This document shows positions 25,245-60,379 of a stretch of DNA of 64,000 nucleotides, one piece after another (the first letter of the stretch is position 1; the number at the start of each line of letters is the position of its first letter). Source of the DNA: Octopus vulgaris. Lineage: Eukaryota. Under the pieces are notes generated by a model. The model worked only from the letters and a program-made list of their open reading frames with translations. It was not told where the DNA came from and did not search any database. Where the stretch lies: positions 78,368,001-78,432,000 of the forward strand of contig OX597816.1 of the NCBI GenBank assembly GCA_951406725.2, in the 5' to 3' direction. A program made the translations under genes and the position numbers.

Positions 25245-25457
25245 TCAATGTTTACGAGTTGCATTTAGTGGCCTATAAACCAGCACAGGTATGGGAGAAT
25301 GATGCACCACAAAGTCACTGACACCTCCCAGGAGGGTCCGTCGTGTATGACCGCGCCCTTTACTTCCCATCACAATCATTGTGGCATGTTCCTGTTTTGC
25401 TATGTCAACGATTAGTGGTCCACTTTTTCCAGCTCCAGTTCGGAATTTACCTCTTAT
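25245..25457 (-). CDS. USP gene last coding exon: IRGKFRTGAGKSGPLIVDIAKQEHATMIVMGSKGRGHTRRTLLGGVSDFVVHHSPIPVLVYRPLNATRKH*
   Basis: Acceptor cttttattttacttcttcaaacttgtAG, then 70 codons and TGA. Carries the clear USP C-terminal signature IVMGSxG...RRTLLGxVSDFVVHHSPxPVLV. Confidence 0.93.
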   Translation of the reverse strand: MRGKFRTGAGKSGPLIVDIAKQEHATMIVMGSKGRGHTRRTLLGGVSDFVVHHSPIPVLVYRPLNATRKH

Positions 25458-26399
25458 CTACAAGTTTGAAGAAGTAAAATAAAAGTATTAATCATAAAAG
25501 AGATAAGGAGAAAGAAAAACAAGAAGAAAAGGGGATCAAATAAACATACCGATATATGACTATGTAATGATGACAATGTTGATGATGACAATAATGATGG
25601 TGATGATGATGACTATGATGATGTTGATGATAATTACGTTGCAGCATGATGTTTTCTCAAGAGAAAGAGGATGTGCCCATAACTTTTTCAAGCCCTTTGG
25701 AATGGGTGAGACTGATTTGGTTTATGTTCAACTTGAACAGCTGTAAGTTGACATCTGCAGGAAAAACGTAGTCAGGAATTTTAGAAGCTTGTCACTCTTA
25801 GGAGGGAGGATTAGGTACAGTGATTACAGCTGACAGAGGAGTGGGAAATACAGTGTGGGTAACAAAAAGAGGAGACACAGTTATGTCAGTTGGGTATGTG
25901 TGGAATTGAAATACAACTAGTTCTGACAGGTAGAGGCTATATTAGTAGTATTAAAGAACAATAGAACAAGTACAATGAGGACACAGTATATATATATATA
26001 TAGCTTAGAGGTTGTAGTGTGGTTGTGAATGAGTATTGCAAATTAGTCAGACTGTTTTCTCTTGGATGCAACCCAAAATATTGAACAATGTGTATCAGCA
26101 GTGCTCTCCAAGATATGGAAGTAGTTTTCCAATAAGAGGCAGAATAGGGTTTTGTAGAGTAAATAACTATTCAGACCTGGTGTATTTTTTTGGGGGGATC
26201 AAAGAGGAAAGTTAATCTTTGGAATGCAGCTTTTGCTATCATATGAAAGTGGGATTGCCAGGAAAAATCATTAGAAATTGTTGGTCACTTAACATTTGAG
26301 GTAATTTTGAGGGTTTAAATATAAAACCTAAGAGGGTGAGTTACAAGACAATTTGTTTTCTTCATAGAGATTGTGTATTAATACAGGGACTGTCATTGT

Positions 26400-26700
26400 G
26401 TTGATGAGGTTATAATAATTTCTTAGTTTTAGTTCTTCCTGTACAGTTGGCCAGTACATTGGGCAGTAAGACATCTCCAATAATTCTGGTTTTGAGCATA
26501 GTCCTCTGCATCTTTCCAGATAATGCTAAGTTACTTCAGGTCTTCATTGAAGGTAGTACACCATGTCATTTTGGATCTCTCTTTGACCCTCTGGTGGTTC
26601 CCATTGCATAGCTGTCTTGTGTATTTGTCCTTCTGGCAGTTGGAAAACATGACCTGCAAGTCTCACTCTTCTTTCTGTAACAATCTCTGCTACTGCCTGT
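26400..26700 (-). mobile_element. RTE-like LINE 3' fragment, degenerate
   Basis: The minus strand shows an RVKERSKMTW (GRPKxTW-like) C-terminal segment. Confidence 0.4.
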
Positions 26701-27384
26701 TCCAAGACTGGATGCGAAAGGAGGAGGAGGATCAGCTAGCAACCTGTGACCAGAACCACCAAGTAAGGAAAACACACTTGTGGGTAAAACTGCAATTGCT
26801 ACGGAAATAACAAGAAATCTTATTAATTGAGCTGGTGGAGTAGTTACAGCATTGGACAAAGTACTTTACAGTATTTCTCTCCCCGTTTTACATTCTTAAA
26901 TTAAATCCTGCTAAGTTCAACTTCACCTTTCATTAAGATTGATTAAATGAAATACCAGTCAAATATTGAAGTTGATGTTATCATCTAGACCTTCCACATA
27001 AAATTGTTGGCCTTTCGCCAAAGTTTGAAACAACTGTTATTATCCAGTGAGCTTGTTAAAAAGGAAAATCAAAATCACATAATCTGGTGGTCTCAGAGCT
27101 GGTGGGTATTTATCTCCTTGCTGGCTATATAAACAAATTCTGTACCAAAAGCCTATATAAGAGTTTCTCTCATGGTATCTACTGCAGTAAAGTTTGTTCT
27201 AATAGGACATTCATGTTTAAGTGGGAATAAATATTACCTTTTGGTATATATTAGCCTCTGTTGCTAATATAAGTTTTCAAAAAATTATTATTGTTTTAGT
27301 TTTACTTTAATTCATACAAACTGAACCCATTATTATTATTATTATTATTATTATTATTATTATTATTATTATTATTATTATTAT

Positions 27385-27650
27385 CCTCATTCTTTTAAGT
27401 CAGGCATTGTTGGAACTCCTGGAGTCTTGCATATGTAGTGAGCTTGCTACCAGCAGCCTACAGTACCATGCTATCCATTCTTTTCACCTATCTAATACTC
27501 TCCTGATGATTCTGGCTGTGCCAAAGAGGTAAAACTTTTGTAACAGTTCTACTGGGCACTCTATTCCAATTTTCTTCATATTCCTCTTGATGCCTTCTGA
27601 TACTTCCCCAATACCCAACAATAATTGGCGGCGTCAGAGGCAGCAGCACC
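27385..27650 (-). mobile_element. R4/Dong-type RLE element, 3' fragment
   Basis: Abuts (TAT)n at about 27330-27383. Has a PIIVG..G...LLQKFYLFGTARIIRRVL-type C-terminus, same family as 46200-47690. Confidence 0.75.
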
Positions 27651-57168: not shown

Positions 57169-57234
57169 ACATATATATTTATATATATATATATATATAT
57201 ATATATATATATGTGTGTGTGTGTGTGTGTGTGT

Positions 57235-59660
57235 GGTGGTAGAACAATGTTGTTGACAGGGCTATTAGAGAAAAGAAACAGGCTTGGAAGGACTGGAAGA
57301 ACGGTGGTAGCAGGGAATTGTATCAGACTGCCAGAAGGGAAGCTAGGAGACAGGTTTATTTAGCCAGAGGGGAAGCAGATAAGAAAAAATTTGCCAATGT
57401 TCTGCACCGTGAAGACCAATGACTTGAGGCATTTTGTGTTGCAAGACAGTGTGTGAGAGAGAATCGTGATGTCGTAGGAGAGAAACATGTCCGCATGGAT
57501 GATGGTTCACTTGCATTAAGCGAGGCTGCAAAGACAGAGGTTTAGAGACACCACTATGAAAGGTTGCTCAATAAAGAGAATGAATGGAAAAAAGAGAGTC
57601 TACCGAATGTCAACCCTACAGAGGGACCAGATATCCGAATTGACAGTACTTTGGTAGATAAAGCAATTAAGAGTATGAAGACAGGAAAAGTCCCTGGCCC
57701 GTCAGGAATCACTGCAGGGATACTCAAAATATCTGGCAGTGTTGGCTATAGCCTAGTCACCTGTATAGTTAACCAGGTGATACACGAAGGAGCCATACAA
57801 AATGACTGGTGTAGCAGCATAATAGTCAACTGCTACAAAGGCAAAGGTGACGCCCTAGATACAAATAACTACAGAGGTATCAAGTTGTTGGATCAGGTAA
57901 CGAAGGGAGAGAGTCAGTTTAGATGAGATGCAGTTTGGGTTCGTGCCAGGGAAAAGCACCACTGATGCGATATTTCTGGTAAGATAGCTGCAGGAGAAAT
58001 ACCTAATCAAAGATAAACCTCTGTCCCTGGCTTTCGTTGACATGGAGAAAGCCTTTGACAGGATCCCCCGATCCCTTATCTAGTGGTCAATGAGGAAACT
58101 AGGGATAGATGAATGGTTAGTGAGAGCTGTGCAAGCCATATACAGGGATGCTGTTAGTAAGGTGAGGGCTGGCAACATGTATAGTGAAAAATTCCGGGTA
58201 GAGGTAGTGGTCCACCAAGGTTCAGTCCTCAGCCCCCTCCTATTTAGGATAGTCCTGCAGGCAATAACAGAGGAATTCAAGACAGGATGCCCCTGGGAGC
58301 TCCTGTATGCTGATGACCTTGCTCTAATTGTTGAGTCACTATCAGAACTAGAGAAGTTTCAAGTGTGGAAGCAAGGATTAGAATGAAGAGCCTTAGAGTC
58401 AACCTAGCTAAACCAAAGTCCTAATAAGTATGAAGGCAGACAAACCACAAATCCCTTCAGGTAGATGGCCCTGCTTGATCTGTAGAAAAGGTGTAGGTAG
58501 AAACTCTATAATATGTACCCAGTGTAAGCTATGGACACATAAGAGGTGCAGCAATATCAAAGGAAGGCTAACTGGGAAGATAGTTTTTGTATGTGGCAGA
58601 TGCTCAGGAGCAATTAACACTGAAAATGTGCAGAGAACAACTTTCGCCACATTCCAGGGAGAAAAACCAGAAGTAGTTGATAGCTTCCATTACCTAGGTG
58701 ACCAAGACAGTAGTGGAGGAGGGTGTGCTGAAAGTGTAGCTGCTAGAATAAGAATAGCCAGGGCAAATTTCAGAGAGCTCTTATCTGCTGGTGACAAAGG
58801 GCCTCTCACTCAGAGTAAAAGGTAGACTGTATAATGTATGTGTAAGAACAGCCATATTACATGGCAGTGAAACATGGGCAGTGACTGCTGAGGACATGTG
58901 TAAAATCGCAAGGAATGAAGCCAGTATTCTCCGCTGGATGTGTAATGTCAGCGTGCATACTTGATACTTGTGTAAGTACCTTGAGAGAAAAGTTCGACCT
59001 AAGAAGCATCAGATGTGGTGTGCAAGAGAGACGACTGTGCTGGTATGGCCATGTGGCAAGAATGGATGTGGATAGCTGTGTGAAAAAGTGTCACACCCTA
59101 ACAGTTAAGTAACCCGTGGGAGAGGTAGACCCAGGAAGACCTGGGATGTGGTGCTTAAGCATGACCTTTGAACATTGGGCCTCACCAAGGCAATGACTAG
59201 TGACTGGGACCTTTGGAAATATGTTGTTCTTGAGAAGACTCGGTACACCAAGTGAGACCATAACCTCGTAGCCTATGCCAATGGTGTAACCATCCTACTT
59301 ATGTGTACCTTTCCTTCATTGGACACTAAACTTTGTTTGCGAAGACCTGTTGAGGCAAGTGAAATCGAAATTGAAATCAAATTCGATGACTGGCATCTGT
59401 TCTAGTGCACCATTCTAAGAGCACCATCTGAGCGTGATCTTTGCCGGAGCAACAAACTGGCTTTCATGCCAGTGGCACATAAAAAGCACCATTTGAGTGT
59501 GATCGTTACCTGCGTCGCCTTACTGGCACTTGTGCTGGTGGCATGTGAAAAAACATTTGTGGTCGTTGCCAGTAGTGCCTAACTGGCCTTCATGCCAGTG
59601 GCACATAAAAGCACCCACTACACTCTCGGAGTGGTTGGCGTTGATGATGATGATGATGAT
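57235..59660 (+). mobile_element. RTE LINE (longest copy) with PHD-like finger and minisatellite 3' region
   Basis: KTGKVPGPSGI, YKGKGDALDTNNYRGIKLL, HQGSVLSPLLF, ELLYADDLAL, the C4HC3 finger and DSFHYLG, ending in a (GAT)n tail. Confidence 0.92.
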
Positions 59661-60298
59661 GATATATATATATATATATATATATATATATAGAGAGAGA
59701 GAGAGAGAGAGAGAGAGAGAGAGATACAAGCACAGACACATACAGACACTCAAATTTGGTAGAAAAATAGACGTTAAAATGATGATGATGATGATAATGA
59801 TATATCTCAATGCATGATCTGATCTCTTGTATTTTTTCAGAAAATTTGCTATTTTTTTGAAACAGCTCAGGGAGTTATGGTAATGCAGAATAAACAAAAT
59901 CTCTGCTGTGACTTTGAGCTCCTGAAGCAGCCTAATAGTTGAACTTCTGAAAAATAACTCATTTTTAAAATTTCATTTCAACAAGAATGGAGAGAAAGGT
60001 AAAAATAATTTACTGCCTCCCCTCCATCTGCTCCCTGGCCTGTACCATTATAATGTGTACCAACAGAGTTTTCTGATACACTTGAACAACACACTCCTGT
60101 GCAGATGATTCATTTTCTTTAACTTTCTGCACACTGGTGTCATTCATTTACATCTTAGACCTCCCTCTTATACTAGAGTCATACTACTTTCGAGATCAGG
60201 GATCTTAAATATATTTTTCAATGGCCTTACAGCAATCTAGGTGACTTTATCAAGACAAACGAAATACGATAAGAAAACTCATGAAGATATTTACTTAC

Positions 60299-60379
60299 TT
60301 GGCATGAGAATACTAGGGTATTCCAGTATATGGATGAGTACCACAAAGTCATCTTTCCGTTGTAGGTTATCAAGGTACC
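60299..60379 (-). CDS. Universal stress protein (USP) gene, internal exon 'E2': (W)YLDNLQRKDDFVVLIHILEYPSILMP
   Basis: Minus strand reads tttcctcttctttattcAG | 81 nt | GTAAGT, phase 1 to phase 1. The peptide matches the animal USP pattern WY..N.....D.V.L.H..E (beta-2 strand). Confidence 0.88.

What the first reader, a model, noticed from the sequence alone, without database searches (positions are those of the whole stretch)
25245..60379. Hidden universal stress protein gene spread over more than 35 kb of transposon-filled introns
Seen: three minus-strand exons with canonical splice sites and matching phases (1, then 0). They assemble to WYLDNLQRKDDFVVLIHILEYPSILMP-x-VSVLQQILHEMDEKLDTVEERCKEHLQKLQ-IRGKFRTGAG...GSKGRGHTRRTLLGGVSDFVVHHSPIPVLV. 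None of these exons is in the ORF track, and about 395 coding nt make up about 1% of the span. Known: the USP (UspA) family is best known from bacteria and plants and is patchily distributed in animals. It is present in cnidarians and lophotrochozoans, lost in ecdysozoans and tetrapods, and poorly characterised in cephalopods. Inference: the first exon (IAVDGS-type motif) lies beyond 64000.
Basis: partly seen in the sequence, partly recalled or inferred. Interest (0 to 1): 0.72.

Follow-up and report, generated by a model that had tools for sequence, protein, structure and literature searches.

The report
Ordinary octopus stress-protein gene, altered pocket
This is a real, spliced octopus gene for a small universal stress protein that databases already list; its long repeat-rich introns are normal for this genome, and the one unusual point is that octopuses changed several conserved residues of its likely nucleotide-binding pocket, which would alter what it binds.

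Summary
Observation confirmed. Three minus-strand exons (60379-60299, 34680-34589, 25457-25245; 386 nt, not 395) have GT-AG sites in matching phases. Exon 1 lies 6.8 kb beyond the window. Transcript contigs from four studies join the exons. The 162-aa product is a single Usp (PF00582) domain with an MJ0577-like predicted fold. It is not hidden: it is identical to RefSeq XP_029634052.1 (Octopus sinensis), and the O. bimaculoides orthologue is in a published USP data set. It is one of at least 8 USP genes in the genome. About half of the intronic DNA is repeats, within the range of the flanks. Two side findings add modest interest. First, the octopod orthologues evolved fast on their stem (29 versus 8 changes against cuttlefish, p=6e-4; a paralogue control shows none) and then stayed 96% identical, replacing near-invariant pocket residues (S26R, P104S, R125K; S137G in this species and Argonauta). 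Second, indirect signs point to an A-to-I recoding site (R83G). A public O. vulgaris model fuses this gene to a downstream TNF-like gene, probably in error. Verdict: already known, low interest.

The parts
60380..64000 (-). In-window part of intron 1 (10,421 nt in all, GT-AG, phase 1). It runs past the window end to exon 1, whose coding part (103 nt, with the ATG) lies at L009:6801-6903 (extended coordinates 70801-70903), after an unspliced 5' leader of at least 540 nt.
   Evidence: tblastn with P0001; sequence; contigs of 4 of 4 runs; intron at least 43% repeat
60299..60379 (-). Exon 2, 81 nt (end of helix 1, strand 2)
   Evidence: loose end at 34680 matches it; an 81-nt space in the contigs between exon 1 and exon 3
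34681..60298 (-). Intron 2, 25,618 nt, GT-AG, phase 1; holds LINE and Penelope-like remnants and microsatellites
   Evidence: at least 61% repeat
34589..34680 (-). Exon 3, 92 nt (long helix 2)
34618..34619 (-). Candidate A-to-I sites: 34619 synonymous A>G (listed by the tool); 34618 would give R83G (inferred, letter not printed)
   Evidence: tables 3, 5, 8; P0001 against P0005; predicted exon-intron duplex
25458..34588 (-). Intron 3, 9,131 nt, GT-AG, phase 0; position shared with all 8 USP loci found
   Evidence: joint in 4 of 4 runs
25245..25457 (-). Exon 4, coding part with the G-x2-G-x9-G motif, the dimer strand and TGA
   Evidence: PF00582 E 1.9e-17
25000..25244 (-). 3' UTR, at least this far; contigs run 30-68 letters beyond 25000 towards a microsatellite, and the true end is unknown
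   Evidence: unbroken contig pieces 25000-25457 in 4 of 4 runs
40388..42625 (-). Non-LTR retrotransposon reverse-transcriptase frame in intron 2 (745 aa stop to stop)
   Evidence: RVT_1 E 1.3e-25
37569..38135 (-). GIY-YIG endonuclease remnant (Penelope-like; label from recall)
   Evidence: PF01541 E 1e-4, 23 bits against cut-off 22.6
57233..59643 (+). Broken high-copy LINE with RT and PHD-like pieces
   Evidence: RVT_1 E 3.6e-9, PHD E 3.8e-6; up to 20 overlapping hits in the local library

Best explanation
This is an intact, spliced four-exon octopus gene for a 162-aa single-domain universal stress protein that likely works as a cytosolic homodimer holding an adenine nucleotide and likely acts as a stress-linked regulator of partner proteins rather than as an enzyme. 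Shown: exon structure, splicing, open frame, family and conservation across octopods. Predicted: the MJ0577-type fold. Inferred: the adenosine half of the pocket is kept (D24, I52, G123, G126, G136, S139), while the changes S26R, P104S, E106P, R125K and S137G likely weaken or alter the grip on triphosphate and metal. The octopod protein therefore probably binds ATP differently from its cuttlefish orthologue, or prefers AMP/ADP. The long introns result from ordinary retrotransposon accumulation and need no special mechanism.
For: Splicing in 4 of 4 runs from 4 studies. 162 of 162 residues identical to XP_029634052.1; 156 of 162 to O. bimaculoides; 147 of 162 to Argonauta. PF00582 over residues 17-154, E 1.7e-25. 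Model mean pLDDT 86.1, pTM 0.80, five strands and four helices. All listed Foldseek hits are USPs; the best are MJ0577 (E 5.7e-9) and the ATP-bound L. plantarum USP 3s3t (ligand state from Table 1 of PMC3673472). D24 is shared by 104 of 107 homologues, G123 by 108 of 110, G126 by 109 of 110. Partly degenerate motifs still bound ATP in solved USPs, and most USPs dimerise through strand 5 and helix 4 (PMC3673472 passages). Octopod orthologues are 132-134 of 138 identical, which argues for purifying selection.
Against: No binding, dimer, localisation or stress-induction data exist here for this protein; these steps rest on bacterial, archaeal and plant USPs. The canonical G-x2-G-x9-G-(S/T) motif is not fully met. 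In flatworms, changes at this G-S went with low expression and pseudogenisation (PMC5793430). O. bimaculoides keeps S137, so that change is not fixed across octopods. The motif loop is the least confident core part of the model (pLDDT 73 and 67 for residues 121-140). The runs are only guessed to be RNA, and contigs cannot give expression level or tissue.
Confidence: 0.7

Rival explanations
1. The octopod protein has lost nucleotide binding altogether and works as a ligand-free UspA-type scaffold or chaperone.
For: Five well-conserved positions near the motif changed: R125 is R in 109 of 110 homologues, S137 is S in 109 of 110, S26 is S in 93 of 106, P104 is P in 77 of 110, E106 is E in 69 of 110. 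The octopod stem branch is 0.52 substitutions per site against 0.14-0.21 on the sister side.
Against: Three of four motif positions and D24 remain. Only completely degenerate motifs lacked ligand in the survey of PMC3673472. O. bimaculoides has the full motif.
Confidence: 0.15
2. The changes are neutral drift under relaxed constraint, and the protein is a standard ATP-binding USP like its cuttlefish orthologue.
For: R125K is conservative. S and G alternate at 137 among octopods. G at this place also occurs in 2 of 193 motif matches in other proteins.
Against: The rate asymmetry is significant (29 vs 8, p=5.6e-4; 22 vs 10, p=0.034 with another outgroup) and absent in the control paralogue (10 vs 7, 9 vs 8). 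The sequence was nearly frozen afterwards, more so than the control paralogue (96% vs 90% between O. bimaculoides and Argonauta).
Confidence: 0.12
3. The gene is a decaying duplicate or pseudogene, or the exons belong to different tandem paralogues.
For: The motif change at G-S resembles the flatworm USPs judged to be pseudogenising.
Against: The frame is open over four exons, single contigs carry all exons in 3 of 4 runs, and orthologues are 91-96% identical. No second USP exon was found by tblastn in 264 kb, and the other USP locus on this contig is 62 Mb away.
Confidence: 0.02
4. The real product is the 397-aa USP-TNF fusion of public model CAI9719519.1, spliced from a cryptic donor inside exon 4 to a TNF-like gene downstream.
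For: The model exists. Its tail maps to seven minus-strand pieces 8-83 kb before window base 1. The junction uses GT and AG in frame.
Against: The model has one member and one contig. Contigs in 4 of 4 runs pass unbroken through 25000-25457, although rare forms are dropped from contigs and 125 loose-end rows were not shown. The fusion would cut off the motif and the last strand.
Confidence: 0.01

Closest known systems
XP_029634052.1, 'universal stress protein Sll1388-like', Octopus sinensis (P0004)
   Same: 162 of 162 residues identical.
   Different: None at protein level; the name is an automatic similarity label, not a tested function.
O. bimaculoides XP_014789038.1 / Ocbimv22016265 (P0005) and Argonauta hians orthologue (P0003)
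   Same: 156 of 162 and 147 of 162 identical; share S26R, P104S, E106P, R125K. The O. bimaculoides protein is in the outgroup set of PMC5793430.
   Different: O. bimaculoides keeps S137; Argonauta has G137 like this gene.
Cuttlefish orthologue CAE1224864.1 (P0158) and bivalve KAK3612047.1 (P0157)
   Same: Same GKFRTG-type group of molluscan USPs; 81 of 138 and 65 of 138 identical.
   Different: They keep the consensus pocket residues S26, P104, E106, R125 and S137.
MJ0577 (PDB 1MJH), UspFG-type ATP-binding USP
   Same: Best fold match (E 5.7e-9); D13, V41, G127, G130 and G140 correspond to D24, I52, G123, G126 and G136 (the first two placed by motif position, not by a printed alignment).
   Different: 24% identity; S141 corresponds to G137; archaeal and intronless.

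Membership tests
Universal stress protein family (PF00582) | Pfam Usp match above the curated cut-off over the whole domain | tested here: met
   90.6 bits against 24, residues 17-154, profile 3-141 (on the identical P0004)
Universal stress protein family (PF00582) | Five-stranded alpha/beta fold with four helices | tested here: met
   Predicted model, not a solved structure; Foldseek hits all USPs
Universal stress protein family (PF00582) | Homodimer through strand 5 and helix 4 | not tested
   No complex prediction was obtained; the strand-5 motif PV is conserved
Universal stress protein family (PF00582) | Induction under stress | not testable with these tools
   Only contigs were available. 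PMC11431876 reports an unassigned USP up in senescent mucus; its supplement could not be read
ATP-binding (UspFG / MJ0577-type) USPs | Full motif G-x2-G-x9-G-(S/T) | tested here: not met
   G123, G126 and G136 are present; position 137 is Gly, and no other letter was listed there in 4 runs. Met in O. bimaculoides
ATP-binding (UspFG / MJ0577-type) USPs | Strand-1 Asp and strand-2 adenine-positioning residue | tested here: met
   D24 (104 of 107 homologues) and I52 after H51; roles from Table 1 of PMC3673472
ATP-binding (UspFG / MJ0577-type) USPs | Measured ATP binding | not testable with these tools
   Needs a binding assay
Intron-bearing cephalopod USP paralogues | Phase-0 intron 30-31 codons before the G-x2-G motif | tested here: met
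   An in-frame AG acceptor at this place in 8 of 8 USP loci of G000; RNA-confirmed only for this gene
ADAR A-to-I recoding site (R83G) | A in DNA and G in RNA reads of the same individual | tested here: inconclusive
   Indirect contig accounting only; no matched DNA; the letter at 34618 was not printed; a local 10-bp duplex is predicted, but the region folds no better than shuffles (z -0.54)

The most novel reading that the evidence does not exclude
On the octopod stem, one conserved molluscan USP was rebuilt around its nucleotide pocket and then frozen, giving octopuses and argonauts a stress protein with a new ligand or partner; its long helix is further tuned by A-to-I recoding (R83G) shared between species.
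Probability: 0.3. Interest if true: 0.5.

Novelty: already known. Interest (0 to 1): 0.22.

Why it matters
As a gene discovery it does not matter: the protein is annotated, and cephalopod USPs are in print. If the pocket remodelling is real, the octopus and cuttlefish orthologues form a natural pair for testing what changes in the USP ATP motif do, a question that PMC5793430 calls poorly understood. The locus also flags a probable fusion error in one public O. vulgaris gene model.

Tried and rejected
Exon 1 inside the window: no Asp-motif match in 60380-64000; it was found 6.8 kb outside.
Alternative acceptor 9 nt into exon 3: contig pieces reach 34680 in 4 of 4 runs, so it was not seen in use.
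Tandem-paralogue mosaic and pseudogene: rejected (see rivals).
Flatworm CCAATCA promoter motif: absent from 1.6 kb before the ATG; the start site is unknown, so this is uninformative.
Ten upstream ATGs in the 542-nt leader: about what base composition would give by my rough estimate, not tested by shuffles.
Long editing-complementary sequence within 3 kb of exon 3: best duplex -24.0 kcal/mol, matched or beaten by 7 of 20 shuffles; region z -0.54.
Editing-site tables: no hit in the one supplement held for each of PMC8382921 and PMC9068888; the full tables were not seen.
No RNA holder is listed on record, which is no evidence either way.
No complex prediction was obtained, so there is no verdict on the dimer.
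No genome-wide intron-size figure was found (the octopus genome paper is not held).
Scan notes: none near; one unrelated algal note.
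Full report
Observation. They measure 81, 92 and 213 nt (386 in all, 1.1% of the span) and join in one open frame through phase-1 and phase-0 introns. The last exon alone matches Pfam Usp at E 1.9e-17; the two short exons alone do not. The window's one N run (14585-14684) lies outside the gene.

Exon 1. A search with the last exon gave two proteins among 160 candidates. The closer one, P0001, placed exon 1 at extended coordinates 70903-70801 in 200 kb fetched beyond the window. 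The four exons give 489 nt and 162 aa, with introns of 10,421, 25,618 and 9,131 nt, all GT-AG; the coding span is 45.7 kb. The strand-1 motif is IAIDER, not IAVDGS.

Splicing. Of 24 runs listed, 20 hold the 3' stretch; none is on record as RNA. I laid 4 of them, from 4 studies. The joint 25457/34589 is in 4 of 4, and the loose end at 34680 is exon-2 sequence in the 3 runs whose row was shown. On the exon-1 stretch, contigs stop at the donor in 4 of 4 runs. Their lengths and depths equal those of the exon-3 contigs, and the space between the two pieces is 80 letters plus one shared letter, i.e. exon 2. Matching records across the two calls by length and depth is my inference. In three runs one contig carries all four exons; in X5 two contigs do.

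Identity. The product is identical to XP_029634052.1 of Octopus sinensis (162 of 162), and close to O. bimaculoides (156) and Argonauta hians (147). The O. bimaculoides protein is one of 9 octopus entries in supplement 2 of PMC5793430. G000 holds at least 8 USP loci, from 11 candidates scored. All 8 have an in-frame acceptor 30-31 codons before the motif. The gene is thus a known member of a known family.

Introns. I scanned 22 of the 47 frames listed in the region. Four hit Pfam: two reverse transcriptases, a GIY-YIG domain and a PHD finger. Against about 0.49 Mb of G000 sequence, repeats cover at least 43%, 61% and 25% of introns 1-3, and 51% of 25458-60298. Flanks give 41%, 51% and 37%. These are lower bounds. 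The introns are repeat-rich but not clearly more so than their surroundings. PMC9068888 describes repeat expansion as general in coleoids (passages). I found no genome-wide intron-size figure to compare with.

Fold and pocket. An AlphaFold2 model on a 97-sequence alignment has mean pLDDT 86.1 and pTM 0.80, with the motif loop least sure. Foldseek ranks MJ0577 first and lists only USPs. The ATP motif is G-x2-G-x9-G-(S/T) (PMC3673472). Here the three glycines, D24 and S139 are kept, but position 137 is Gly. Among 110 homologues of 120-260 aa (114 of 155 stored proteins were aligned; the 4 octopod orthologues were left out of the count), S137 is S in 109 and R125 is R in 109. S26 is S in 93 of 106 and P104 is P in 77 of 110. 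The set was gathered with an S137-bearing query, which biases it slightly. The other 7 USP loci of G000 keep both R and S. O. bimaculoides keeps S137 and Argonauta has G, so this site changed more than once or reverted.

Rate shift. Cuttlefish and bivalve orthologues keep the consensus pocket. Over residues 17-154 the octopod stem is 0.52 substitutions per site, against 0.14 to cuttlefish and 0.21 to unnamed P0002. A relative-rate test gives 29 vs 8 (p=5.6e-4), or 22 vs 10 (p=0.034) with a more distant outgroup, while octopods are 132-134 of 138 identical. One partial sequence, P0160, was dropped. A control paralogue gives 10 vs 7 and 9 vs 8. The control is weak: it is a single gene, and its ingroup proteins are unnamed. 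Orthology with cuttlefish rests on bootstrap 79 and on there being one copy of this type among the 8 loci. A burst followed by stasis suggests a change of function, but no assay supports it. My searches listed no paper on this orthologue's function; most subscription journals are not covered.

Mechanism. The best reading is a cytosolic, dimeric, adenine-nucleotide-binding regulator, as for other single-domain USPs, with a changed phosphate side of the pocket. Dimer, ligand and stress role are inferred from the family. Partly degenerate USPs still bound ATP in solved structures, so loss of binding does not follow from S137G. PMC11431876 found a USP more abundant in senescent octopus mucus (passages). 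Its name resembles that of P0006, but similar names are given to other molluscan USPs and the supplement could not be read, so it is not assigned here.

Possible editing. One search lists a synonymous A>G at 34619 in X1 and X13. Their exon-3 pieces carry two other letters, not one. Every listed row has at least 31 letters to an end in some run, and 34618 would have 30. In X5 the contigs break at 34619, and one has 30 letters on the exon-3 side of which 29 fit. This points to a second change at 34618, which would turn R83 into G. P0001, from a 1.2-kb Logan contig, differs from genomic O. bimaculoides P0005 only by R to G at this residue. The site is predicted to pair with the downstream intron over 10 bp (pair probability 0.96), but the region folds no better than shuffles. 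The letter itself was never printed, and a polymorphism is not excluded. I put editing at about 0.5. Recoding is common in coleoids (15,293 robust sites in squid), so it would be ordinary.

Fusion model. P0006 (CAI9719519.1, O. vulgaris, 397 aa) matches residues 1-124 and then leaves through a cryptic donor after base 25364. Its tail maps to seven minus-strand pieces 8-83 kb before window base 1 and resembles TNF ligands by features and by predicted structure (Pfam found no TNF match at 1e-3). Contigs pass that donor unbroken in 4 of 4 runs, so a prediction error is most likely.

Papers seen. PMC5793430: part 1 of 7, passages and supplement hits. PMC3673472: introduction and passages. PMC11431876, PMC8509486, PMC5534336, PMC10003552 and PMC9068888: passages. 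PMC8382921: search listing and a supplement search. Foret et al. 2011: reference entry and citation only; the distribution across animals is otherwise recalled.

Verdict. The finding is real and correctly read, but already known. Interest is 0.22, carried by the octopod pocket shift.

Noticed in passing
window 25364, and 8-83 kb before window base 1 (L037-L045): Public model CAI9719519.1 fuses this USP to a separate TNF-like gene with a hydrophobic segment. That gene's own first exon was not found and could lie in window 1-25000.
   Followed up: partly
window 34618-34619: A>G differences in transcript contigs; possible A-to-I recoding R83G, paralleled by P0001 against P0005.
   Followed up: partly
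L009:7357: Contigs of 3 of 4 runs carry 8 extra letters (CCTTCCAC on +) in the 5' leader that the assembly lacks; the fourth contig ends there. Indel polymorphism or assembly error.
   Followed up: no
L009:6904-7445: Unspliced 5' leader of at least 540 nt with 10 upstream ATGs.
   Followed up: partly
window 54861-56267 (-): 468-aa open frame without a Pfam match, with one other copy in the local library; probably part of a mobile element.
   Followed up: partly
window 29279-29802: Repeat with very high summed contig depth in the four runs (about 340 to 12,000), i.e. a transcribed high-copy element.
   Followed up: no
window 15773-17041 (-): Frames that look like a Penelope-type reverse transcriptase remnant downstream of the gene (by eye, from recall; not scanned).
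   Followed up: no
G000:C4:163.27-163.83 Mb (L002, L007, L008): Three USP paralogues lie within 0.56 Mb, a loose cluster.
   Followed up: no
window 14585-14684: 100-base assembly gap, outside the gene.
   Followed up: no
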